Shown: positions 6,533 to 63,009 of the stretch, piece after piece
How the letters are laid out: each line of letters starts with the position of its first letter
Position numbering within the stretch: the stretch's first letter is position 1
Source: a virus
Lineage: Duplodnaviria > Caudoviricetes
DNA: 64,000 bases
Strand: one strand, 5' to 3'
Virus record (IMG/VR): IMGVR_UViG_3300042881_004206
Made by a program: the position numbers and the translations under genes
The notes under the pieces: generated by a model
What the model saw: the letters and a program-made list of their open reading frames with translations, nothing else
Databases searched by the model: none
Told to the model about the DNA's origin: nothing

Positions 6533-7873
6533 ATGTATCTAACTGAAGAACTGCAAAAGAAATGGCAACCTGTTCTGGATCATCCAGAACTGGATGCTAT
6601 CAAGGATCCATACAAGAAAGCAGTTACTGCTCTTGTTCTGGAGAACCAACAGCGTGAAATGTCTGCAGCTGCACAGCAACTGAACGAAGCTACTGCTGCA
6701 GCACCAACAAACGTTGCAGGTGGTGTTTCTAACTACGATCCAATCTTAATCAGCCTGGTTCGTCGTGCTCTGCCTAACCTGATTGCTTATGACGTTGCTG
6801 GCGTTCAGCCAATGACAGGTCCTACAGGCCTGATCTTCGCAATGCGCGCTCGTTACAATGCTCAGTCCGGTGCTCCTTCGAACACCAACGAAGCTTTCTT
6901 CAACGAAGCTAATACCATTTTCTCTGGTACTGGTTCTTCTGCTAACCCATACGGCTTCCGTGGTAATAACGCTACTGACGTTGTTACTAACGCTGGTGCT
7001 GATCTGACTGCTAACAGTTATACAACTGGTATTGGTCTGCCAACATCAACTGCTGAAGGTCTGGGTGCAGATGGCAATCCTGCTTTCCAACAAATGGCAT
7101 TCAGCATTGAGAAGGTTACCGTTACCGCTCAATCACGCGCACTGAAGGCTGAGTATTCGTTAGAACTGGCACAAGACCTGAAGGCAATTCACGGTCTGGA
7201 TGCCGAGACAGAACTGTCTAACATTCTGTCTACAGAAATTCTGGCTGAAATCAACCGCGAAGTTATCCGTACAATCTATGCAACTGCTGTTGCTGGTGCT
7301 CAGTACGGTACAACAACTGCTGGTGCTTTCGACCTGGATACCGATTCTAACGGCCGTTGGTCTGTTGAGCGCTTCAAGGGTCTGATTTTCCAAATCGAGC
7401 GTGACGCTAACGTCATTGCCAAGCAGACTCGTAGAGGCAAGGGTAACGTTCTGATCGTTTCGTCAGACGTTGCTTCTGCTATGGCTATGGCTGGTGTTCT
7501 TTCTTATACACCTGCTCTGTCTGCTGACCTGCAAGTAGATGACACTGGCAATACATTTGCTGGTCTGCTGCATGGCCGCATCAAGGTTTACATCGATCCA
7601 TATTTCGGTGGTTATACATCTAATCAAGAACTGGTAACAGTTGGTTATAAGGGTACTTCTCCTTATGACGCTGGTCTGTTCTACTGCCCATACGTTCCTC
7701 TACAGATGGTTCGTGCAGTTGATCAGTTCACATTCCAGCCAAAGATTGGTTTCAAGACCCGTTATGGCATGGTTGCAAACCCATTTGCAACTGGTCTGAC
7801 AAGCGGCAACGGTGCTCTGAACGCTCGTTCGAACGTTTACTATCGCATCTTCGCTGTCAAGAACCTGATGTAA
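6533..7873 (+). CDS. gp23: Major capsid protein
   Basis: VQPMTGPTGLIFAMR, RALKAEYSLELAQDLKAIHGLDAETEL and YCPYVPLQM motifs; probable maturation site LNE/A. Confidence 0.99.
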   Translation: MYLTEELQKKWQPVLDHPELDAIKDPYKKAVTALVLENQQREMSAAAQQLNEATAAAPTNVAGGVSNYDPILISLVRRALPNLIAYDVAGVQPMTGPTGLIFAMRARYNAQSGAPSNTNEAFFNEANTIFSGTGSSANPYGFRGNNATDVVTNAGADLTANSYTTGIGLPTSTAEGLGADGNPAFQQMAFSIEKVTVTAQSRALKAEYSLELAQDLKAIHGLDAETELSNILSTEILAEINREVIRTIYATAVAGAQYGTTTAGAFDLDTDSNGRWSVERFKGLIFQIERDANVIAKQTRRGKGNVLIVSSDVASAMAMAGVLSYTPALSADLQVDDTGNTFAGLLHGRIKVYIDPYFGGYTSNQELVTVGYKGTSPYDAGLFYCPYVPLQMVRAVDQFTFQPKIGFKTRYGMVANPFATGLTSGNGALNARSNVYYRIFAVKNLM

Positions 7874-15678: not shown

Positions 15679-16284
15679 ATGTCCACTGATAATGATTTAC
15701 TAATTTATAATACAGAAGAATCTGTTATTGCATCAAATCAGAAACCAAAAATTTTAAAATTGGTTAATGAATCAGATTCTATTTTAAAAGAAGTTATGCC
15801 TAATTTTGATTTTTCAGATAAATCATTAAATGCTGTTGAGCTGGCAAATTCTTTGGTCGAATCGTGTAAGTTATATAAAGGTTATGGATTATCAGCCAAC
15901 CAATGTGGTATTAGGGCAAGAGTTTTCGTTATGGGTGCCGAGAATGAATATGTAGCATTTTTTAATCCTAAATTACTCTCATCAAAAGGAGAAATACACC
16001 TAGAAGAAGGTTGTTTATCTTTTCCACTTCTAGGATTAAGAGTTACCAGACCTAAAGAAATTGAAGTGGAATACCAAGACTACACTGGAACGACCAAGTA
16101 TATGAGATTGGATGGCATAAGTGCTAGAGTTTTTCTGCATGAGCTTGACCACATGAACGGAATAGTGTATACTGATCGCGCTAAACCATTGGCACTTGCC
16201 TCTGGTCAGAAAAAACGTCAGAAACTATTCAAGAATATTTTAAATAATGGTAAAAAAGTTCAAGAAGCCTATACCTACAGTTGA
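15679..16284 (+). CDS. def: Peptide deformylase
   Basis: GYGLSANQCG, EGCLS and HELDH motifs. Confidence 0.95.
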   Translation: MSTDNDLLIYNTEESVIASNQKPKILKLVNESDSILKEVMPNFDFSDKSLNAVELANSLVESCKLYKGYGLSANQCGIRARVFVMGAENEYVAFFNPKLLSSKGEIHLEEGCLSFPLLGLRVTRPKEIEVEYQDYTGTTKYMRLDGISARVFLHELDHMNGIVYTDRAKPLALASGQKKRQKLFKNILNNGKKVQEAYTYS

Positions 16285-17524
16285 AGAACAATGGGATCAA
16301 TGGAAAACAATAAATGATCCCGTTCGTTTTACACACATTGGAACAGATACACTAAAAGAAGTCTTGGTAAAAGACTTGACTTATGCCTCACAAATGGATG
16401 TGAGAGAATACACTTTGTATCAAAAGTGGTGTGAAGTACATGAAAAGTATCCTACTGAAGTAAGAAACACCTTTGAAGGTGAACAGCTTGTGTTGCTTGA
16501 CCATAAACAAATGCGCACAGTCAATGAAGTCAAAGGTAAATTTTGGATGCCCAAAGAACCTGATGATTATCAGAATCTAAAGCCTAAATTGGTTCTTTCC
16601 AACGAAAAAGAAACCGATACTTGGAATACTATACGTACATTTTCTTCAACAATGAAGAATAACTCCAATATCGGCCGTAACTTATACTATACAGTAGTTG
16701 ATGATGTTACTGGAAACTATCTTGGTGTTATTTGTATATCATCCGATTTCTTGGATTTGACTCCGAGAGATAATGCAATTGGTTGGTCTAGAGATGTTAA
16801 GACCAAACAAAACATGATTAACCACACAGCAATAGGTTCGACCATTGTTCCTTTACAACCACTAGGTTACAATTACATGGGTGGAAAATTACTCGCTTTG
16901 TTATGCCTGGCTGATACTGTACAGAGTGATTGGAAACAAAAATATGGTGATGTTCTGGTTGGTGTCACAACAACATCACTTTATGGAAATACTAAATCAA
17001 ATGGACTTTCACAGTATGACGGTTTAGAACATTGGAATAAGATGGGTTTCTCCAGTGGTTCAGTTGCATTCGAACCCACAAGAAAAACCATGAATATGGT
17101 CTTCGACTGGATTAAAGAGAACCATACACGTAAGTATTTCGAATGGTGGGAAGCAAAAAATCCTCAAGGATTACCACTGAAACGAGATCACAAAAACCGT
17201 TCTCTAAATTTTGCTTATTCAAAATTACAGATACCTAAGAACTTAATTCGTACCGAACATCAGAGAGGCATCTATTTTTCTCCTCTCTATGATAACACCA
17301 ATGAATTTTTGCGGAAAGAAATTGGTGAAGATAAACTGGTAAAATCATTTGATACCAGTGAAGAAACTTTGGCTAATATTTGGAAAACAAAATATGCCAA
17401 AGGTAGAATTTCAATGTTGAAAAAGAAGAACACGGTTTCCTATGAAAACCTATTCTATGATGACTTGATTTTCCTCTCTTGGGAAGAAACCAAAGAGAAA
17501 TATCTGCCACAAGTTGGCAGATAA
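16247..17524 (+). CDS. DUF4338/DruA-like protein, copy 1
   Basis: IVPLQPLGYNYMGGKLLALLC and TTTSLYG...SQYDG motifs, shared with ORF at 39.4 kb and recalled from the DruA family. Confidence 0.65.
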   Translation: MVKKFKKPIPTVEEQWDQWKTINDPVRFTHIGTDTLKEVLVKDLTYASQMDVREYTLYQKWCEVHEKYPTEVRNTFEGEQLVLLDHKQMRTVNEVKGKFWMPKEPDDYQNLKPKLVLSNEKETDTWNTIRTFSSTMKNNSNIGRNLYYTVVDDVTGNYLGVICISSDFLDLTPRDNAIGWSRDVKTKQNMINHTAIGSTIVPLQPLGYNYMGGKLLALLCLADTVQSDWKQKYGDVLVGVTTTSLYGNTKSNGLSQYDGLEHWNKMGFSSGSVAFEPTRKTMNMVFDWIKENHTRKYFEWWEAKNPQGLPLKRDHKNRSLNFAYSKLQIPKNLIRTEHQRGIYFSPLYDNTNEFLRKEIGEDKLVKSFDTSEETLANIWKTKYAKGRISMLKKKNTVSYENLFYDDLIFLSWEETKEKYLPQVGR

Positions 17525-17963: not shown

Positions 17964-18761
17964 ATGGAAATTTCTATTAAAAAAGAAGACCTACAAAAGA
18001 AAAGCATCTTTGTTGCAACTCCGATGTATGGTGGTATGAATCATGGCCTTTATGCTAAAGCTTGTCTCGACTTACAAGCTATCTGTGTTCAGTATGGCGT
18101 TACTGTAAAGTTCTCTTTTCTTTTCAATGAATCATTGATTACAAGAGCACGAAATTATCTTGTAGATGAATTTCTAAATCGTTCGGAATGCACACATCTT
18201 TTGTTTCTTGATTCCGACATTCACTTTGATCCTAGAGATGTTATTGCGATGTTGGCTCTAGATAAAGAAGTTATTGGTGGACCTTATCCCAAGAAAGCTA
18301 TTAAGTGGCGTTCTGTAAAGAAAGCTATCGAAAAGAATCCTGATATCGATCCACAACTATTGGAAAAAGTTACTGGTGACTATGTTTTTAATCCTGTTCG
18401 TGGTACTGCACAATTTTCTGTAACTGAACCACTAGAAGTTCTGGAAATTGGAACAGGTTTTATGATGGTTCAACGAGAAGTATTTCCAAAGTTTGCAGAA
18501 GCTTATCCACAATTAAAGTATAAACCTGATCATGTTGGTCAAGCACACTTTGATGGAAGTCGGTATATTCATGCATATTTTGACACAGTAATTGATAAAG
18601 AATCTGAAAGATATTTGTCAGAAGATTATATGTTCTGTCAGTGGTGGAGAAACATTGGTGGAAAAATTTACCTCTGCCCTTGGATGAGAACTGACCACAT
18701 CGGCACATATCACTTCAAGGGAGACATGCCTGCTGTTGCTAACTATGTAGGAGAAATGTAA
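17964..18761 (+). CDS. GT-A fold glycosyltransferase-like protein
   Basis: IFVATPMYGG, ESLITRARN, HLLFLDSDI (DxD), GTGFMMV and YLSEDYMFC. Confidence 0.75.
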   Translation: MEISIKKEDLQKKSIFVATPMYGGMNHGLYAKACLDLQAICVQYGVTVKFSFLFNESLITRARNYLVDEFLNRSECTHLLFLDSDIHFDPRDVIAMLALDKEVIGGPYPKKAIKWRSVKKAIEKNPDIDPQLLEKVTGDYVFNPVRGTAQFSVTEPLEVLEIGTGFMMVQREVFPKFAEAYPQLKYKPDHVGQAHFDGSRYIHAYFDTVIDKESERYLSEDYMFCQWWRNIGGKIYLCPWMRTDHIGTYHFKGDMPAVANYVGEM

Positions 18762-19189
18762 TGAAATCTGAAGATTTTTCTCCGTCAGCACCAACGATTA
18801 CTATTGGTGGTGCCGCTGCTGAACCAATAATTGAAACAATTAATCTAGATGATATTTCAATTACTTTGAGTGATGATATCATCAAATTTCATGATATAGA
18901 TGGACGCAAGTTTGATGACGGTAAACTTGAATATGGTTTGTTGCCTCCTTTGGCACTTAAAGCTACAGTTGATGTTCTAACTTTTGGTGCACAAAAATAT
19001 GAACGAGACAACTGGAAGTTTGTGGATGATTCGAAAAGGCGTTATTTCGATGCATTACAAAGGCATTTGTGGGCTTGGAAAGAAGGAGAAGAAAATGATC
19101 CGGAATCCGGTAAACACCATTTAGCTCATGCAATGTGTTGCCTAATGTTTCTTTATGAACACGATGTGAAATATTCCACGACAGAATGA
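18761..19189 (+). CDS. dATP/dGTP diphosphohydrolase domain protein (DUF5664-like)
   Basis: GRKFDDGKLEYGLLPP, VLTFGAQKYERDNW, YFDALQRHL and DPESGKHHLAHAMCCLMFL. Confidence 0.8.
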   Translation: MKSEDFSPSAPTITIGGAAAEPIIETINLDDISITLSDDIIKFHDIDGRKFDDGKLEYGLLPPLALKATVDVLTFGAQKYERDNWKFVDDSKRRYFDALQRHLWAWKEGEENDPESGKHHLAHAMCCLMFLYEHDVKYSTTE

Positions 19190-25322: not shown

Positions 25323-25412
25323 CCCGCCATAGCTCATGGAGAGCAGGAGCGCTTATAACGCTTTCGTCCAGATAAGACCCAGGATGTGGTTCGATTCCAC
25401 ATGGCGGGACCA
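25323..25412 (+). tRNA. Atypical tRNA with UAU anticodon (Ile) and long variable region
   Basis: Acceptor CCCGCCA/TGGCGGG; GAGCG-CT TAT AA-CGCTT; 21-nt V region; TTCGATT T-loop; ACCA. Confidence 0.75.
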
Positions 25413-25659: not shown

Positions 25660-25773
25660 TGTTTTGCTGATTGTAAGCCATGGGCTTGATCATGCCCGAG
25701 TAACTGTGTACATAATTGCGGTAATTCTAGACTATCCCGCATGAGCACAGCAAATAGTGCAGTCAGCAAAACA
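25660..25773 (+). ncRNA. Unassigned structured RNA in tRNA array
   Basis: Closed by perfect 11-bp TGTTTTGCTGA/TCAGCAAAACA helix; internal stems; no tRNA signature. Confidence 0.65.
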
Positions 25774-25776
25774 AAT

Positions 25777-26302: not shown

Positions 26303-26306
26303 AGAA

Positions 26307-26495
26307 CGTGCCGTTTCGTCAACGGCTAGTCTGACCCGGACGATGAGAAGGTAGATGACGTCTACAGGGTGGTTCTGGTCCTACCGAACCAGCGCTGGCA
26401 ATGCGAGAACGGGACCTGTTGGGAAGCGGGTGGAAGGTGCAAGTGATGGCCTGCAGGCTTGATGCACTATAATTACCGCCAGGGTCCGTCAGAGC
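26307..26495 (+). ncRNA. ~190-nt multi-stem structured RNA (candidate manA-RNA-like motif)
   Basis: GC-rich non-coding stretch between tRNAs with at least six stems and long-range TCTGAC/GTCAGA pairing; family assignment is tentative. Confidence 0.65.
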
Positions 26496-26499
26496 ATAT

Positions 26500-28296: not shown

Positions 28297-28370
28297 GCGG
28301 GATTAGTTTATCGGTAAAACGAAACCTTGCCAAGGTTTAGTGACCAGTTCGACTCTGGTATCCCGCTCCA
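28297..28370 (+). tRNA. tRNA-Gly(GCC)
   Basis: AAACC-TT GCC AA-GGTTT; U73; CCA. Confidence 0.93.
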
Positions 28371-28388
28371 AATATACCATAATAATTC

Positions 28389-28416
28389 TTGACTCTACAA
28401 ATTTTTCTGTTATAAT
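28389..28416 (+). promoter_or_regulatory. Internal sigma70 promoter in tRNA array
   Basis: TTGACT-16 nt-TATAAT with TG extension. Confidence 0.6.
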
Positions 28417-28428
28417 TAATTCATAAAT

Positions 28429-28496
28429 GCGGTGTGTTGTAGAACAGAGTGGATGTCCAATTCACTTGCTTGGTGCAAACCCAAGACGCCGCTCCA
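28429..28496 (+). tRNA. Degenerate 68-nt tRNA-Gly(UCC)-like RNA
   Basis: Acceptor GCGGTGT/ACGCCGC plus TCCA; tiny D arm; 6-bp anticodon stem with loop TG TCC AA; T-loop TGCAAAC. Confidence 0.7.
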
Positions 28497-28500
28497 AATG

Positions 28501-28575
28501 CGCGGGATGGAGAAGTGGCAACTCGCCAGCCTCATAAGCTGGAGATCGCAGGTTCAAATCCTGCTCCCGCAACCA
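28501..28575 (+). tRNA. Initiator-type tRNA-fMet(CAU)
   Basis: C1xA72 mismatch, CGCGGG 5' end and TTCAAAT T-loop; lacks the three anticodon-stem G:C pairs. Confidence 0.85.
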
Positions 28576-29304
28576 CTAAGAATGCAATTTAAATAAACTG
28601 AGTGCTTCCGGTATTCTTGTTTTTGTGTTCTGGCTTCCCAACAATATAACAATTCGTTGACTGATTCCATTTGTCAACATCATAGCAATACATCCACCAG
28701 ATGCTGTTATGAATCCAGTTTTACTTACAATAAATTCATATTGTTGAACCAACGGATTTGTATTGTTGTAGGTTAAAAATTTATTTTTTGTTGTTTGTAT
28801 TTTTATTGATGGCATTTTACTACTTTCAACAATTTCAGGATAATCTTTTGCCATCATTACAATTTTAATCAGTTCTTCAGCTGTACTGATATTCATTATA
28901 CTTAAACCTGTTGGTTCCACGAATCTGGTCTGTTCCAGGCCATGCATACGCATTTTTAGATTCATACTATAGATACACGCAGAAGTTCCACCAGGATAGT
29001 TCTCACATAATGTTACGGCCGCGGAATTACTTGAATTCACCATTGCCAATTGTATCAATTCTTTCCTTGTCAACTTACCTATTTTTTCATTTAGGTCTTG
29101 TTGTGCATCTAAAACAACCATCGATGTGACCAATTTTGTAATACTGGCAATCGACCTCACATCAGTTGTATTTTTACCTTCAATTATTTTGCCATTTTCG
29201 TCTGACACAATCCAGGCTTTTGCGGTAATAGGCTGTGTTGCGTTAACTGGTTCAGTATAAAATGCGGCGAAAACCAACAATAAAGAAATAATTTTGTATA
29301 GCAA
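28576..29304 (-). CDS. Serine D-Ala-D-Ala carboxy/endopeptidase (peptidase S11, PBP5/PBP7-like), exported
   Basis: Signal peptide; SITK (SxxK), SSN (SxN) and KTG motifs. Confidence 0.9.
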   Translation of the reverse strand: MLYKIISLLLVFAAFYTEPVNATQPITAKAWIVSDENGKIIEGKNTTDVRSIASITKLVTSMVVLDAQQDLNEKIGKLTRKELIQLAMVNSSNSAAVTLCENYPGGTSACIYSMNLKMRMHGLEQTRFVEPTGLSIMNISTAEELIKIVMMAKDYPEIVESSKMPSIKIQTTKNKFLTYNNTNPLVQQYEFIVSKTGFITASGGCIAMMLTNGISQRIVILLGSQNTKTRIPEALSLFKLHS

Positions 29305-33747: not shown

Positions 33748-33795
33748 TTGCATGTCCGAACAAAATCATATATAATTGTATCACTCTTATTTATG
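33748..33795. promoter_or_regulatory. Face-to-face promoters: + strand sigma70 and - strand late-type
   Basis: TTGCAT-17-TATAAT (33748-33776, +); CATAAATA on - strand (33788-33795). Confidence 0.5.
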
Positions 33796-33872
33796 CGGGT
33801 AGACAGGTGAAGGGGCCACCAACAGCCTTCCAAGCTGAAGATCGCGGAGTTCGACTCTCCCTACCCGCTCCA
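33795..33872 (+). tRNA. tRNA-Gly(UCC) with irregular D arm
   Basis: Acceptor GCGGGTA/TACCCGC plus TCCA; CAGC-CT TCC AA-GCTG; TTCGACT T-loop. Confidence 0.8.
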
Positions 33873-38117: not shown

Positions 38118-39471
38118 AGAATATTTACGGAAAGTCCTACCTTTTCTAAAAGAAGAATATTTTACCGATAGAACAGATAAAACTATATTCAATGAAATTT
38201 CATCGTTCGTACAGACTTACAATAACACGCCATCGATTGAAGCAATTGAATTGGCCGTCAAAGAGAGGCGTAATCTCACAAATGATGAAGTGGAGAGATG
38301 TGAATCTTATCTTAAAGAAATTGAAAAGACTGCATCAGAAAAATCCCAGGTTCAATGGCTTGTTGACAAGACAGAAAAGTTTTGTCAGGAAAAAGCTATC
38401 TACAATGCAGTATTGGGGTCTATTTCTATTCTCGATGGAAAAGACAAAACAAACGACAAAGGTTCGATTCCCAAGATACTATCGGACGCCTTAGCAGTAA
38501 GTTTCGACAATTCAGTTGGCCACGATTATTTGGAGAATTCAGATGAACGATATGACTTCTACCACAGAAAAGAAGAAAGAATCCCATTTGACCTGGAATA
38601 CTTCAACAAGATTACAAAAGGTGGTCTTCCTGCCAAAACTCTTAATGTTGCTCTTGCTGGTACCGGTGTGGGCAAGTCTCTCTTTATGTGTCATGTTGCC
38701 GCTTCGTGTCTATCTTTGGGTAAAAATGTACTTTATATCACCCTTGAGATGGCTGAAGAAAAAATTGCAGAACGTATTGACGCGAATCTTTTGAATGTCA
38801 CAGTTGATGAATTGATTGAACTACCAAAAGATTTATATGATAAAAAAATTAATCGAATCAAAGATAAAGTTGTTGGTAAATTAATCATCAAAGAGTACCC
38901 AACAGCATCAGCATCAGTTACACACTTCAGAACACTTTTGAATGAACTTAATCTAAAAAAGTCTTTTGTACCAGATATTATCTTTGTCGATTATCTTAAC
39001 ATCTGTTGTTCTTCCCGTATTAAACCAGGTTCAAATATTAATTCATACACATATGTTAAATCGATTGCTGAAGAACTTAGAGGTCTAGCAGTTGAGTTCA
39101 ATGTTCCTATTGTATCTGCTACACAAACTACACGATCAGGATTTACAAGTAGTGATCCTGGTTTGGAAGATACATCAGAATCGTTTGGTCTTCCAGCAAC
39201 TGCTGATATGATGTTTGCTTTAGTTTCGTCAGAGGAATTGGAAGAACTTGGGCAAATTATGGTCAAACAATTGAAGAATCGTTATTCAGATCCAACACAA
39301 TTCAAAAGATTTGCTCTAGGTATTGACAGGTCTAAAATGAGATTATATGATGTTGAACAATCAGCACAAAATGGTTTGGCGGATGCTGGAATTACCGATA
39401 AACCATTAAACACATTTGGTGACCGAGAAAGAAACACAAAGAAGGACAAGTTCAGTGCATTTAAAGTTTGA
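38074..39471 (+). CDS. gp41: Replicative helicase
   Basis: MKLEQTILKNL start; AGTGVGKS, ITLEMAEE, IFVDYL, SATQTTR and ESFGLPATAD. Confidence 0.96.
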   Translation: MKLEQTILKNLVYNEEYLRKVLPFLKEEYFTDRTDKTIFNEISSFVQTYNNTPSIEAIELAVKERRNLTNDEVERCESYLKEIEKTASEKSQVQWLVDKTEKFCQEKAIYNAVLGSISILDGKDKTNDKGSIPKILSDALAVSFDNSVGHDYLENSDERYDFYHRKEERIPFDLEYFNKITKGGLPAKTLNVALAGTGVGKSLFMCHVAASCLSLGKNVLYITLEMAEEKIAERIDANLLNVTVDELIELPKDLYDKKINRIKDKVVGKLIIKEYPTASASVTHFRTLLNELNLKKSFVPDIIFVDYLNICCSSRIKPGSNINSYTYVKSIAEELRGLAVEFNVPIVSATQTTRSGFTSSDPGLEDTSESFGLPATADMMFALVSSEELEELGQIMVKQLKNRYSDPTQFKRFALGIDRSKMRLYDVEQSAQNGLADAGITDKPLNTFGDRERNTKKDKFSAFKV

Positions 39472-40561
39472 TGACGCTTTATATTGTGCCAAAGTTTTTG
39501 AAAATTATTTTGGTAATTTTAATCGCATCGATGAATACATGAAGGATCAAAAGTTGGCATCTCTATCGGAGATACCGACTAATCCACTTTTTCCGATTGA
39601 AGATGATTTGTTTTCAAATTTTGCGATTCATCCATCAGATATGAATTTTGAAGTGTGTGAAATTGCACAAGATACATGGGAAACATTACTCAATATCACA
39701 TCATCACATATTAATGTTGCGCCAGTTGGTCGACAGATTCGTTTGGCTGTCAGAGAAACAAATACAAATAAATTTGTTGGTTTTCTTCGACTCGGTTCAC
39801 CCGTTATTAACATGAAGCCGAGAAACGAAATGCTCGGTCAGGTTTTTACACAACAACCAGAATGGGCAAAACAATTCAATGATTCTGCCATGATGGGTTT
39901 TGTAATTGTTCCTTCACAACCATTCGGTTATAATTATCTTGGTGGTAAACTTCTTGCACTTATTTGCACTTCACATGAAGTACGCGAAATCATTAACAAG
40001 AAGTATGGAATGAATTTTTGTTTGTTTGAAACCACAAGTCTCTATGGTAGTTCTAAGACAGTATCACAATATGATGGTTTGAAACCATATATTCGTTATA
40101 AAGGATTGACTGATTCAGATTTTGTGCCGTTGATGCACGGAAAGCCATACGAAGATTTGAGAAATTTTGTGGAAGACAAGATTGGTGATATTGTGGATCC
40201 GGATGCTTCCAGTAAGAAGCTAAAAACTACCATGAGAATTATTGCTCTCACCAAATCAGCACTCAAAGGTACTTCTGAAGGCGGCTCATTCCAAGCAACG
40301 ATTGAGAAGGCTAAGGGGTTGACAGAACAGAAAAGATATTATATCAGTGACTATGGTTATAAAAATATGGTGGATTATGTTAACTGTAAGTCGGACATGC
40401 TTATTCCTGGCGAAAACTATGAAAAACATCATTTGGTAAATTTGATTGGATGGTGGCGAAATAAAGCATCGAATCGATACGACACATTGAAATCGGAAGG
40501 CCGTTTACGCAATGAACTTGAAGTGTGGACCTCAGGAAAAGATATTCAGATAATTAGATAA
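39416..40561 (+). CDS. DUF4338/DruA-like protein, copy 2 (start possibly GTG 39455)
   Basis: VIVPSQPFGYNYLGGKLLALIC and FETTSLYG..SQYDG, shared with ORF 16247. Confidence 0.65.
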   Translation: MVTEKETQRRTSSVHLKFDDALYCAKVFENYFGNFNRIDEYMKDQKLASLSEIPTNPLFPIEDDLFSNFAIHPSDMNFEVCEIAQDTWETLLNITSSHINVAPVGRQIRLAVRETNTNKFVGFLRLGSPVINMKPRNEMLGQVFTQQPEWAKQFNDSAMMGFVIVPSQPFGYNYLGGKLLALICTSHEVREIINKKYGMNFCLFETTSLYGSSKTVSQYDGLKPYIRYKGLTDSDFVPLMHGKPYEDLRNFVEDKIGDIVDPDASSKKLKTTMRIIALTKSALKGTSEGGSFQATIEKAKGLTEQKRYYISDYGYKNMVDYVNCKSDMLIPGENYEKHHLVNLIGWWRNKASNRYDTLKSEGRLRNELEVWTSGKDIQIIR

Positions 40562-47729: not shown

Positions 47730-48923
47730 ATGAAATCTTTCGTTTCGTTTCTCCGTGAAGAATCAGAACAGCCGGAAGGCGAAAAACTCAAACATATTGA
47801 GCACCTAGAAGACCATCCTATTAACGATGGTAAAAGGGGATTTGAACACGCCGTTGGTGCATTAGATCAGGCACACAAACACATCATTGCTGGTAGTCAC
47901 GATTCAACTTTGACTATGAAACACGATGGATCACCTTCTATTGTATTTGGTCATCATCCTGAAACTGGCAAGTTTTTTGTGGCATCAAAATCGGCTTTCA
48001 ATAAGAATCCAAAAATCAACTACACACCAGAAGATATTAAAAATAACCATGGCCATGCACCAGGTCTAGTAGAAAAATTAACTCACGCACTACAACACCT
48101 ACCTAAAATTACACCAAAACAGGGTGTTTTTCAAGGTGATGTTCTTTTCTCCGGCAAAGACAAGACTACTTCCGGCGGTGTAACAAAGTTTACTCCCAAC
48201 ACAATCACTTATTCCGCAGACAATCCGGAAGAAGAAAAAAAGATCCGTAAGGCCAAATTCGGCATCTATAATCATACAGAGTATGTTGGTAAGTCTGCCA
48301 AGGCAATGACTGCAAACTACAGTCCCAACTTTGAAAATTTCAAAGAACATCCCGAGGTATATCACCGAATGGGTGGTCATGATACATCTAAGGTCAAAAT
48401 GACTGGCAATCAACATGTTGAATATGCGCAACATCTGAAAGCTGCAAATAAAGTGCATAATGCACACGGCAACTACATGTATGATGCGCTGGAAAACCCT
48501 GGATCCTATGGATCACTTCGTGATCATGTGAAAACATACATTAATTCAACTGTGGATACACAAGAAAAACCATCTGTTCCGGGTTTACAGAAACATTTGG
48601 AAAACAAATACAACAAACAGATCGACAAAGTTAAAACTGATGCTGCCAAGAAAAAGTATCAGGATGAAGTTGCGAGTCACATTAAACATACCAATTTACA
48701 CAAACAAAACTTAGAAAATGTATTCTCTGTACACCATCACTTGCAGAAAGCTAAAGATGTTCTCGTACATGCACTCTCAACACATACTGGTGGTCTCAAA
48801 CATGAATATAAAGGACAACCAGTGAAACCTGAGGGATTTGTAATTAACCATGAAGGTCAACTATCAAAATTCAATGACCGCAATGAATTCAATAGACTCA
48901 ACAGACTAGCAAGATCAAAATGA
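47730..48923 (+). CDS. Ligase-like nucleotidyltransferase-fold protein with capsid-targeting-like N-terminus
   Basis: MKSFVSFLREE; KHDG (motif I KxDG), QGD, EGFVI and K in motif order. Confidence 0.6.
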   Translation: MKSFVSFLREESEQPEGEKLKHIEHLEDHPINDGKRGFEHAVGALDQAHKHIIAGSHDSTLTMKHDGSPSIVFGHHPETGKFFVASKSAFNKNPKINYTPEDIKNNHGHAPGLVEKLTHALQHLPKITPKQGVFQGDVLFSGKDKTTSGGVTKFTPNTITYSADNPEEEKKIRKAKFGIYNHTEYVGKSAKAMTANYSPNFENFKEHPEVYHRMGGHDTSKVKMTGNQHVEYAQHLKAANKVHNAHGNYMYDALENPGSYGSLRDHVKTYINSTVDTQEKPSVPGLQKHLENKYNKQIDKVKTDAAKKKYQDEVASHIKHTNLHKQNLENVFSVHHHLQKAKDVLVHALSTHTGGLKHEYKGQPVKPEGFVINHEGQLSKFNDRNEFNRLNRLARSK

Positions 48924-61218: not shown

Positions 61219-63009
61219 ATGAAATATCTCGGCATCAATATAGACTTAGAAAGAGATAAATTATTCGACCAGTTAGGTATTAAAAGACTCCAAGAATCTT
61301 ACATGCGTGAAGACGAAACTTCACCACAACATAGATTTGCATATGTTTCAAAATCATTTGGTTCTAATCCGGAACATGCTCAGAGGTTGTATGACTACTC
61401 AAGTAAACATTGGCTTTCATATTCAACACCAATACTTTCTTTCGGCCGATCTAAAAGAGGAATGCCCATATCATGTTTTCTAAATTATATCGAAGATACA
61501 GCAGAGGGTCTAGTTGATAATCTGTCCGAGACTAATTGGCTCTCTATGTTGGGTGGAGGCGTGGGCATTGGTTTCGGTATTCGGAGCGCTGATGATAAGT
61601 CTACTGGTGTTATGCCTCACCTTAAAATCTACGATGCATCCTCTCTCGCCTACCGCCAGGGTCGTACTCGTCGCGGCTCTTATGCTGCATATCTTGATGT
61701 TTCACATCCTGATATTATTCCCTTTTTAGAAATGCGAAAACCAACCGGTGATCCAAATGTGCGTTGTTTGAATCTGCATCATGGTATTAACATCACAGAT
61801 GATTTCATGCAAGTAATCGAAAAGTGCATGGTTGATCCTGGTGCAAATGATAATTGGGAGCTTAAAGATCCACACACCGGCGAAGTGCGTGAAGTTGTTT
61901 CCGCAAAGATGTTATGGCAAATGATTCTAGAGTTGCGTATGCATACAGGTGAGCCGTATATTCATTATATTGATACGAGCAATCGTATGATGCCACAATG
62001 GCTCAAAGACAAAGGATTACGAATCAATCAATCCAATTTATGTTCAGAAATTATTCTGCCAACAAATGAAGAAAGAACTGCTGTATGCTGTTTATCAAGT
62101 TTGAATCTAGAGTATTACGATGATTGGAAAAATGATAAACTATTTTTGCGAGATGTTGCTGAGATGCTGGATAATGTGCTTCAGTATTTTATTGATAATG
62201 CTCCTGATTCCATTTCTAGGGCTAAGTATTCTGCTAGTCGCGAGCGTTCAATTGGTATTGGCGCTCTTGGTTTTCATGCCTACCTGCAATGCAATAACAT
62301 TGCTTTTGAAGGAGTGATGGCAAAGGTAACAAATAACAAAATATTCAAACATATTAGGAAGGAATTAGATGAAGCTAATAAGGTTTTGGGAGCAGAACGA
62401 GGTGAAGCTCCAGATGCTAGTGGGACTGGTCTGCGTTTTAGTCATCTTATGGCTGTTGCTCCAAATGCTTCTTCGTCTATCATTATGGGAAACACTAGCC
62501 CTAGTATCGAGCCTTATCGCGCTAACGCTTATCGTCAGGACACGTTATCTGGCTCATCACTAAACAAAAATAAGTATTTCGATAGAATTATTCAAAAACA
62601 TTCAAAAGGCCATGCAGAGGGATGGTCTGAAGAGGTCTGGTCTTCTATTATTGCTAATGATGGTTCGGTGCAACATCTTGAATGGCTTGATGAAAACGAA
62701 AAAGCTGTATTCAAAACTTCCATGGAAATTGATCAGAGATGGGTCATAGAACATGCTGCCGATAGACAACAGTATATTGATCAAGCACAATCATTGAATG
62801 TATTTTTCCGTCCCGATTCGAACATTAAATATGTTCATGCTATACACTTTATGGCATGGAAAAAAGGAGTAAAAACGTTATATTATTGTAGATCCGAAAA
62901 AATTGGAAAAGCAGATAAAGTTTCGAAGAAAATTGAAAGACAGGTAATCAAAGAACTTGACATGACACAAATTGCTCAAGGAAACGATTGTATAGCTTGC
63001 GAAGGATAA
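61219..63009 (+). CDS. nrdA: Ribonucleotide reductase class Ia alpha subunit (short, no ATP cone)
   Basis: PISCF, QSNLCSEI, AVCCLSS, APNASSS, TLYYCR and C-terminal CIACEG. Confidence 0.95.
   Translation: MKYLGINIDLERDKLFDQLGIKRLQESYMREDETSPQHRFAYVSKSFGSNPEHAQRLYDYSSKHWLSYSTPILSFGRSKRGMPISCFLNYIEDTAEGLVDNLSETNWLSMLGGGVGIGFGIRSADDKSTGVMPHLKIYDASSLAYRQGRTRRGSYAAYLDVSHPDIIPFLEMRKPTGDPNVRCLNLHHGINITDDFMQVIEKCMVDPGANDNWELKDPHTGEVREVVSAKMLWQMILELRMHTGEPYIHYIDTSNRMMPQWLKDKGLRINQSNLCSEIILPTNEERTAVCCLSSLNLEYYDDWKNDKLFLRDVAEMLDNVLQYFIDNAPDSISRAKYSASRERSIGIGALGFHAYLQCNNIAFEGVMAKVTNNKIFKHIRKELDEANKVLGAERGEAPDASGTGLRFSHLMAVAPNASSSIIMGNTSPSIEPYRANAYRQDTLSGSSLNKNKYFDRIIQKHSKGHAEGWSEEVWSSIIANDGSVQHLEWLDENEKAVFKTSMEIDQRWVIEHAADRQQYIDQAQSLNVFFRPDSNIKYVHAIHFMAWKKGVKTLYYCRSEKIGKADKVSKKIERQVIKELDMTQIAQGNDCIACEG

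What the first reader, a model, noticed from the sequence alone, without database searches (positions are those of the whole stretch)
28389..28496. Miniaturised 68-nt tRNA-Gly(UCC)-like RNA behind its own promoter
Seen: Gly identity elements kept (G1:C72, C2:G71, U73, CC anticodon bases, CCA). But the D arm is reduced to about TGT-AGA-ACA, the anticodon stem has 6 bp, G replaces U33, the V loop is 2 nt and the T-loop is TGCAAAC. All stems remain paired, which argues against simple decay. Known: non-ribosomal tRNA-Gly species lacking D/T-loop consensus donate glycine to cell-wall or lipid synthesis in some bacteria. Inference: a non-translational glycyl donor or a decoy; it sits 80 nt from the peptidoglycan peptidase gene.
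Basis: partly seen in the sequence, partly recalled or inferred. Interest (0 to 1): 0.62.

Follow-up and report, generated by a model that had tools for sequence, protein, structure and literature searches.

The report
Phage glycine-donor tRNA for Mom-like enzymes
This lake phage keeps a shrunken glycine tRNA that standard tools miss. It seems built to be loaded with glycine but kept off the ribosome, and across many phages such RNAs travel with relatives of an enzyme that attaches glycine to DNA, so it probably supplies DNA modification rather than cell-wall synthesis.

Summary
The 68-nt RNA (28429-28496) is real and conserved. I found 63 distinct homologues in freshwater T4-like phages, with stems 98-100% paired and many compensatory changes. 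In a search that left both loops free, C35-C36 and the UGCRAAY T-loop held in 80/80 loci and G33 in 76/80. The peptidase link fails (11/196 loci), and no Fem/MprF enzyme was found in the genome.

The likelier partner is a DUF4338/DruA GNAT. This genome has three; two were folded, and both rank phage Mu Mom first (tied with other GNATs). Mom uses Gly-tRNAGly to modify adenine. 61/196 copies lie directly behind the DUF4338 gene (one enzyme clade), and 21/23 RNA-bearing contigs carry it. More broadly, 74/89 phage Gly-tRNA look-alikes with a UGCAA T-loop lie within 300 nt of a mom-type gene, against 0/27 canonical ones.

Best reading: a non-ribosomal glycyl donor for phage DNA modification. Charging, EF-Tu escape and the acceptor are untested. 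I found no paper on it; this scan noted similar pairs on other genomes.

The parts
28389..28416 (+). Sigma-70-type promoter with extended -10; probably drives the mini tRNA-Gly and the following initiator tRNA-Met
   Evidence: 11/12 consensus match; promoter-like site upstream of 91/196 homologues, -10 to G1 spacing most often 8-9 nt. Activity not shown.
28429..28496 (+). 68-nt miniaturised tRNA-Gly(UCC): 7-bp acceptor, no linker, 3-bp D hairpin (28436-28445), AG linker, 6-bp anticodon stem with G33 (28448-28466), 2-nt V loop, T arm with UGCAAAC loop (28469-28485), U73, CCA
   Evidence: Sequence; covariation in 63 distinct homologues; missed by ARAGORN and Rfam
16247..17524 (+). DUF4338/DruA-family GNAT, 425 aa; the orthologue that tracks with the RNA and lies directly upstream of it in a sister clade. 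Candidate glycyl transferase.
   Evidence: PF14236 E 7e-21; model pLDDT 95; top VIA hit Mom 8bv8 Z 10.6, rmsd 4.0, 171 aligned, tied with other GNATs; adjacency in 61/196 loci
39416..40561 (+). Second DUF4338 paralogue, 381 aa, after the DnaB-like helicase. A third, 191-aa, most Mom-like paralogue lies outside the window at L603:3907-4482(-) (G000 about 61906-62481).
   Evidence: PF14236 E 3e-12; third paralogue:
28501..28575 (+). tRNA-Met(CAU), initiator type, 4 nt downstream; probably co-transcribed
   Evidence: ARAGORN; C1:A72 mismatch seen in the Rfam alignment
33795..33872 (+). Second tRNA-Gly(UCC), also missed by ARAGORN. It has U33 and a TTC T-loop but an irregular D linker; likely the decoding copy, which would make the mini RNA redundant for translation.
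28297..28370 (+). Canonical tRNA-Gly(GCC), the in-genome comparison
   Evidence: 60.7 bits

Best explanation
The RNA is a phage-encoded, non-ribosomal tRNA-Gly that supplies activated glycine to the phage's own Mom-like (DUF4338) GNAT enzymes, most likely to modify a DNA base against host restriction. (1) It is transcribed from the upstream promoter and matured with its encoded CCA (inferred). (2) Host GlyRS charges it through G1:C72, C2:G71, U73, C35 and C36 (elements present: shown; charging: inferred). (3) It escapes EF-Tu and the ribosome because it lacks the D-loop GG and T-loop TTC, has G33 and always has an A-U or U-A pair at 51-63 (features shown; escape inferred from the S. aureus NP tRNAs, PMC7826273). 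(4) A DUF4338 GNAT transfers the glycyl group, by analogy with Mu Mom, which glycylates N6-adenine in dsDNA from Gly-tRNAGly (PMC13219725). GNAT fold and co-occurrence are shown; transfer and the DNA target are inferred.
For: Structure under selection. Loop-free search of 80 loci: C35C36 80/80, UGCRAAY 80/80, G33 76/80; the wobble base varies (UCC, CCC, ACC). Pair 51-63 is U-A or A-U in 63/63. Linkage: 61/196 copies lie <300 nt behind the DUF4338 stop, often as tandem pairs of different mini tRNA-Gly; 21/23 RNA-bearing contigs carry PF14236, the two without being 6.5-7.9 kb fragments; 16/19 contigs chosen only for DUF4338 carry a 65-70-nt mini tRNA-Gly, 12 of them directly beside a canonical Gly(UCC). 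Cultured pelagiphages Mosig and HTVC008M have the orthologue plus an atypical tRNA-Gly(ACC); four T4-like phages without DUF4338 show no such RNA. Independent parallel: 74/89 phage Gly look-alikes found by the UGCAA T-loop alone lie within 300 nt of a Mom (73) or DUF4338 (1) gene, all on the same strand, against 0/27 canonical tRNA-Gly (also 1/46). Enzyme: Mom 8bv8 ranks first for both folded paralogues (Z 10.6; Z 14.0, rmsd 3.3, 156 aligned). The 191-aa paralogue aligns H24-S-Y26, R89, S101, G136 and Y139 with Mom H58-Y59, R111, S124, G156 and Y159 and joins DUF4338 at 96.6% probability.
Against: Nothing biochemical was tested. Mom is only tied for first among GNATs in both fold searches; Foldseek ranks it 24th and 11th. 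A direct profile comparison of the 425-aa family with Mom gives no signal. By transitive alignment the 425-aa protein has Thr and Gly where Mom has essential R111 and S124, so its chemistry or target may differ. RNA-gene adjacency maps to a single clade of the enzyme, that is one event; in this window the two lie 11 kb apart. DUF4338 is near-universal in this phage group, so co-presence is partly kinship. A close relative (G020, 57% complete, tRNA array present) showed no mini RNA. Mu Mom works with ordinary host tRNA-Gly, so a dedicated RNA is not required. A related RNA type with G73 in 42-47 kb prophages has no Mom or DUF4338.
Confidence: 0.62

Rival explanations
1. It is a glycyl donor for the same DUF4338 GNATs, but the acceptor is not DNA: a host or phage protein, an RNA, or a virion or cell-surface glycan.
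For: The 425-aa orthologue that tracks with the RNA lacks the R111/S124 equivalents. The 381-aa paralogue lies upstream of glycosyltransferase and methyltransferase genes. GNATs that use aminoacyl-tRNA act on many kinds of substrate (PMC13219725, Fig. 5).
Against: The 425-aa gene sits among DNA-metabolism genes (recombination nuclease subunits, dATP/dGTP diphosphohydrolase, sliding clamp). Its best structural match and the parallel RNA family both point to Mom.
Confidence: 0.16
2. It is a decoy: it binds or inhibits GlyRS, or absorbs anticodon nucleases or Gly-tRNA-acetylating toxins (TacT type) that would otherwise hit the glycine tRNAs.
For: The tRNA shape and Gly identity are retained, and the RNA often lies beside the canonical Gly(UCC) gene. 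The G73 type persists without a Mom-like gene.
Against: A decoy role does not explain the placement behind DUF4338 or inside the 3' end of mom genes. The anticodon loop departs from the natural nuclease target (G33, variable base 34).
Confidence: 0.1
3. It is a compact but translational tRNA-Gly, like mitochondrial tRNA-Ser(UCN) with a 6-bp anticodon stem, that reads GGA/GGG and resists host anticodon nucleases.
For: It has a 7-nt anticodon loop with UCC and mostly A37, and lies inside the tRNA array. GGA makes up 2% of codons in long ORFs.
Against: G33, no D-loop GG, no TTC, a weak 51-63 pair, and anticodon drift to ACC and CCC. A canonical or near-canonical Gly(UCC) is present in the same genomes.
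Confidence: 0.07
4. One reading: a glycine donor for peptidoglycan or lipid synthesis, linked to the adjacent S11 peptidase.
For: The features resemble staphylococcal NP tRNA-Gly (PMC7826273). Gly tRNAs with a UGCAA T-loop also occur in many Streptomyces chromosomes without Mom.
Against: The S11 gene occurs in 11/196 loci; it is convergent and separated by tRNA-Met. No PF02388, PF13480 or PF09924 match in G000.
Confidence: 0.04
5. It is a decaying pseudogene of tRNA-Gly.
For: It falls below ARAGORN and Rfam thresholds.
Against: 98-100% pairing with 96 cells changed on both sides and invariant loops.
Confidence: 0.01

Closest known systems
Non-proteogenic tRNA-Gly NP1-NP3 of Staphylococcus aureus (donors for FmhB/FemA/FemB; PMC7826273)
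   Same: GlyRS identity set kept (G1-C72, C2 pair, U73, C35, C36); weak A-U type pair at 51-63; altered D and T loops; coexists with proteogenic tRNA-Gly.
   Different: Phage-encoded; 67-70 nt with a 3-bp D hairpin, no 8-9 linker, 6-bp anticodon stem and G33. No Fem enzyme in the genome. The paper describes the NP tRNAs as a staphylococcal lineage, and no homology to them is claimed.
Phage Mu Mom (PF25680, PDB 8bv8), Gly-tRNAGly-dependent N6-adenine modification of dsDNA (PMC13219725)
   Same: GNAT fold, ranked first for both folded paralogues; the HY, R111, S124 and G..Y positions are kept in the 191-aa paralogue; Gly-tRNA is the inferred co-substrate.
   Different: Mu uses host tRNA-Gly, and I found no mention in the paper of a dedicated tRNA. 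None of this genome's proteins matches PF25680; they are PF14236. The 425-aa one lacks the R111/S124 equivalents.
DUF4338 / DruA (PF14236), named after Druantia type I
   Same: Pfam match above cut-off for two paralogues, just below for the third. Called a GNAT in PMC10853773.
   Different: Stand-alone genes in a lytic T4-like phage. Other Druantia genes were not searched for. Function uncharacterised; no link to a tRNA found in the literature searched.
Mammalian mitochondrial tRNA-Ser(UCN) architecture (from my own knowledge, not tested)
   Same: Short D loop, shortened acceptor-D linker, 6-bp anticodon stem, short V loop.
   Different: That tRNA is translational and keeps U33; the likeness is convergent and no homology is implied.

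Membership tests
Canonical bacterial tRNA (RF00005) | Reaches the Rfam or ARAGORN threshold; U8, D-loop G18G19, U33, T-loop TTC | tested here: not met
   No hit; all four features absent
GlyRS substrate | G1:C72, C2:G71, U73, C35, C36 | tested here: met
   Present in the window; C35C36 in 80/80 with the loop left free. The acceptor bases were fixed by my patterns, so their invariance in homologues is not a test.
GlyRS substrate | Aminoacylated with glycine | not testable with these tools
   Needs an assay
Non-proteogenic tRNA-Gly (NP type) | Weak EF-Tu pairs in the T stem (A51-U63 rather than G51-C63) | tested here: met
   51-63 is U-A in 35 and A-U in 28 of 63, never G-C; 49-65 is mostly C-G, unlike the NP A49-U65
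Non-proteogenic tRNA-Gly (NP type) | Poor EF-Tu binding measured | not testable with these tools
   Needs an assay
Non-proteogenic tRNA-Gly (NP type) | Fem-family partner for peptidoglycan bridges | tested here: not met
   No PF02388 or PF13480 in the 92%-complete phage genome; host unknown and not searched
Mom family (PF25680), for the candidate partner enzymes | Profile match to PF25680 | tested here: not met
   0 matches in G000; 425-aa family vs Mom profile probability 1.6%
Mom family (PF25680), for the candidate partner enzymes | GNAT fold closest to 8bv8 | tested here: inconclusive
   Ranked first but within 1 Z of other GNATs: 10.6 vs 10.0, 14.0 vs 13.1
Mom family (PF25680), for the candidate partner enzymes | Catalytic R111 and S124, plus H58-Y59 and Y159 | tested here: inconclusive
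   Aligned and kept in the 191-aa paralogue (probability 44%, E 2e-4); replaced by Thr and Gly in the 425-aa family by transitive alignment; D149/R151 not clearly kept in either
Mom family (PF25680), for the candidate partner enzymes | Forms 6-NcmdA in dsDNA from Gly-tRNA | not testable with these tools
   Needs nucleoside LC-MS
DUF4338/DruA (PF14236) | Pfam score above the cut-off of 27 bits | tested here: met
   75.1 and 46.6 bits; third paralogue 25.4 bits, just under, but profile match 96.6%
Druantia type I defence system | DruA within a DruA-E operon | not tested
   The flanking genes annotated here are phage replication and metabolism genes; PADLOC was not run

The most novel reading that the evidence does not exclude
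Phages carry a widespread, unannotated class of ribosome-excluded tRNA-Gly that forms two-part DNA-hypermodification modules with GNAT enzymes: inside or behind mom in terminase operons, and with DUF4338 in aquatic T4-like phages including SAR11 phages. DUF4338/DruA would then be a second family of aminoacyl-tRNA-dependent DNA-modifying enzymes, and the 425-aa branch, which lacks Mom's catalytic residues, would make a base modification not yet described.
Probability: 0.4. Interest if true: 0.88.

Novelty: new variant of a known kind. Interest (0 to 1): 0.74.

Why it matters
If true, phages do not merely scavenge host Gly-tRNA for DNA modification, as described for Mu; many bring their own donor RNA shielded from translation. 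That gives a direct substrate hypothesis for DUF4338/DruA, an uncharacterised domain in abundant lake and ocean phages and in the Druantia defence system. It also predicts a modified base in cultured SAR11 phages (Mosig, HTVC008M) that can be checked by mass spectrometry. Annotation tools miss most of these RNAs; in Mosig the RNA lies under a called 'hypothetical protein'. A natural orthogonal glycyl carrier could also be a useful tool for enzymatic DNA labelling.

Tried and rejected
- The S11 peptidase as query found no related viral loci, and its adjacency is rare.
- blastn of the RNA against cultured phages gave only chance hits.
- The MFE fold does not recover the cloverleaf (z -2.35).
- Two patterns were mis-spaced by me. 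One search returned longer tRNAs and chance hits, and I reused it as the canonical control. One search returned nothing and is no evidence.
- No PDB sequence hit for the 425-aa protein; direct profile comparison with Mom was blank.
- No PurZ/PurA or QueC in the genome, so no sign of 2-aminoadenine or 7-deazaguanine pathways.
- Expression is unresolved. One low-depth contig from an RNA library spans 28377-28544 (depth 3.4), but it starts upstream of the promoter and could be DNA. Not counted as evidence.
- Four cyanophages with only the distant, shorter DUF4338 show no such RNA. The pattern needs an encoded CCA, so absence is weak; the same limit applies to the four negative controls.
- Literature searches found no report of a dedicated phage tRNA-Gly for Mom or DUF4338. 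Subscription journals are not covered, and one comparative-genomics paper on DNA base modification could not be fetched.

Full report
Setting. The window belongs to a 156.6-kb T4-like phage record, 92% complete, with 22 ARAGORN tRNAs and a tmRNA. Near-identical DNA is held in lake and freshwater metagenomes of several studies. The finding lies near the end of the tRNA array.

The observation. A 68-nt sequence at 28429-28496 folds as a compact tRNA with G1:C72, C2:G71, U73, CCA, anticodon UCC, G33 and T-loop TGCAAAC. ARAGORN and Rfam miss it. An 11/12 promoter match ends 12 nt upstream; the initiator-type tRNA-Met starts 4 nt downstream, so the promoter is probably shared.

Family and structure. 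Pattern scans of viral and metagenome contigs gave 63 distinct sequences of 67-70 nt. Parsed by anchors, the anticodon, T and D stems are 99, 100 and 98% paired, against 82, 69 and 80% after shuffling partners. The tool's own count on 39 sequences gives 98.8% against 73.6%, with 96 cells changed on both sides; slid registers reach at most 54%. These sequences are related, so the shuffle figures are not probabilities, but the number of swapped pair types rules out decay. My first patterns fixed the loops, so I repeated the search with both loops free. In 80 loci, C35C36 and UGCRAAY were invariant and G33 held in 76, while base 34 varies among U, C and A. GlyRS reads C35 and C36 but not base 34 (PMC7826273), so this is the pattern expected of a charged but non-decoding RNA. 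Pair 51-63 is always A-U or U-A, as in the staphylococcal non-proteogenic tRNAs that bind EF-Tu weakly.

Redundancy for translation. The genome has a canonical Gly(GCC) and a second, near-canonical Gly(UCC) at 33795-33872. In relatives the mini RNA usually lies directly beside a canonical Gly(UCC).

The cell-wall idea. The S11 peptidase is convergent, is separated from the RNA by tRNA-Met, and occurs in 11 of 196 loci. No FemAB, FemX-type or MprF-type gene was found in the genome.

The partner. In several phages the RNA follows a 425-aa gene whose orthologue is window 16247-17524, Pfam DUF4338/DruA. A second paralogue is at 39416-40561 and a third, of 191 aa, lies outside the window. Of 196 RNA copies, 61 lie within 300 nt of the DUF4338 stop, often as tandem pairs of different mini tRNA-Gly. 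A tree shows this adjacency is one deep clade of the enzyme, so it counts as one event; the window's phage is in the clade where the RNA sits in the array, 7-12 kb away. The closest copy to the window's RNA (61/68 identical) is in the adjacent clade. Across whole contigs, 21 of 23 with the RNA carry DUF4338. Of 19 chosen only for DUF4338, 16 carry a mini tRNA-Gly of this or a related design; one exception is a close relative with its tRNA array present. The two cultured pelagiphages with the orthologue each keep an atypical tRNA-Gly(ACC) lacking the D-loop GG and TTC. Four T4-like phages without DUF4338 and four with only a distant paralogue show none, with the caveat that the pattern needs an encoded CCA.

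What the enzyme is. The 425-aa model (pLDDT 95) is a GNAT. Mu Mom ranks first by VIA-align (Z 10.6) but is tied with other GNATs, and Foldseek and profile comparison do not single it out. The 191-aa paralogue bridges the two families. It matches the DUF4338 profile at 96.6%, aligns with Mom over 132 columns with the HY, R111, S124 and G..Y positions kept (probability 44%), and again ranks Mom first (Z 14.0 against 13.1; Foldseek rank 11). The 425-aa branch has other residues at the R111 and S124 positions. Mom transfers glycine from Gly-tRNAGly to N6 of adenine in dsDNA and accepts all E. coli isoacceptors (PMC13219725).

An independent parallel. A scan using only the T-loop and acceptor end returned unrelated phages of 28-70% GC. 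Of 89 Gly-anticodon RNAs (80 distinct), 74 lie within 300 nt of a Mom-family gene (73) or DUF4338 (1), all on the same strand. Most sit in a ParB-mom-terminase operon, many inside the 3' end of the mom reading frame; anticodons are UCC 56, ACC 28 and CCC 5, and 73 lack the D-loop GG. Canonical tRNA-Gly controls score 0/27 and 1/46. These RNAs differ in D-arm design from the window's RNA, so this shows that UGCAA-loop glycine tRNAs accompany a proven Gly-tRNA-using enzyme family; it does not prove the same for DUF4338. The same T-loop also marks Streptomyces chromosomal tRNA-Gly without Mom, so it looks like a general sign of non-ribosomal use rather than of DNA modification as such.

Mechanism and confidence. 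Most likely, host GlyRS charges the RNA, EF-Tu ignores it, and a phage DUF4338 GNAT moves the glycine to DNA (0.62). A non-DNA acceptor (0.16), a decoy (0.10), a translational role (0.07), cell-wall use (0.04) and decay (0.01) remain. Shown: structure, conservation, identity elements, linkage and GNAT fold. Inferred: expression, charging, EF-Tu escape, transfer and target.

Novelty. Non-ribosomal tRNA-Gly and tRNA-dependent DNA modification are each known. A phage-encoded dedicated donor paired with Mom or DUF4338 was not found in the literature searched. My reading was recorded before I looked up earlier notes. Those notes reach the same idea on other genomes; they are unchecked and are not counted as support. 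This report adds the corrected architecture of this RNA type, the loop-free test, the controls, the single-clade caveat, the bridging paralogue and two cultured phages in which to test it.

Noticed in passing
window 33795-33872 (+): A second tRNA-Gly(UCC) missed by ARAGORN, alone between genes behind a TATAAT-like box, with a 4-nt acceptor-D linker and a bulged T stem.
   Followed up: partly
L603:3907-4482 (-), G000 about 61906-62481: 191-aa DUF4338-related GNAT that keeps Mom's HY, R111 and S124 positions; 763 homologues found; bridges DUF4338 and Mom.
   Followed up: yes
window 25660-25776 (+): Strongly structured non-tRNA element inside the tRNA array, between tRNA-Glu and tRNA-Lys (z -4.9, 0/200 shuffles); no Rfam match.
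   Followed up: partly
window 26305-26499 (+): About 195 nt of GC-rich non-coding sequence in the tRNA array with no ARAGORN or Rfam match; candidate ncRNA.
   Followed up: no
window 25323-25412 (+): tRNA with a UAU anticodon, a long variable arm (90 nt), a 6-bp anticodon stem and an 8-bp acceptor with a 4-bp T stem in the MFE fold; allo-tRNA-like, identity unclear. A 92-nt Ile(UAU) also occurs in L770.
   Followed up: partly
L001:2701-2770, L004, L006, L010, L021, L023, L033, L037, L041: A second 70-nt RNA type in 42-47 kb, about 55% GC prophages, just upstream of the HNH and small terminase genes. Same anticodon loop and UGCAAAU T-loop but G73 and an imperfect acceptor stem; no Mom or DUF4338 in nine genomes. 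Unexplained.
   Followed up: partly
L064, L072, L077, L078, L083, L092 and others: In many temperate-type phages the Gly tRNA-like RNA overlaps the last codons of the mom reading frame, in a ParB-mom-terS-terL operon.
   Followed up: partly
L742:1428-1501 (Mosig 7779-7852, -) and L787:1501-1574 (HTVC008M 91140-91213, +): Atypical tRNA-Gly(ACC) in two cultured SAR11 phages, not annotated as RNA; in Mosig it lies under a called hypothetical CDS.
   Followed up: partly
L623, L625, L627, L694 and about 40 other Streptomyces loci: Chromosomal tRNA-Gly-like genes with a UGCAAG T-loop and anticodons UCC, ACC, GCC or CCC, no Mom nearby; possible non-ribosomal donors for cell-wall or natural-product enzymes.
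   Followed up: no
L022:412-479, L277, L281, L164, L604: Further mini tRNA-Gly designs in tandem behind DUF4338, some with C-rich anticodon loops and a UUUAACA T-loop.
   Followed up: partly
window 28576-29304 (-): S11 D-Ala-D-Ala peptidase whose stop codon abuts the CCA of tRNA-Met; sporadic among relatives.
   Followed up: yes
window 18761-19189 (+) and 17964-18761 (+): A dATP/dGTP diphosphohydrolase (PF18909) and a weak glycosyltransferase-like gene just downstream of DUF4338, without PurZ or QueC in the genome; may point to altered nucleotide pools.
   Followed up: partly
G000 48402-48775 (-), outside the window: Phage-encoded permuted tmRNA, tag ANDEKFALAA.
   Followed up: no
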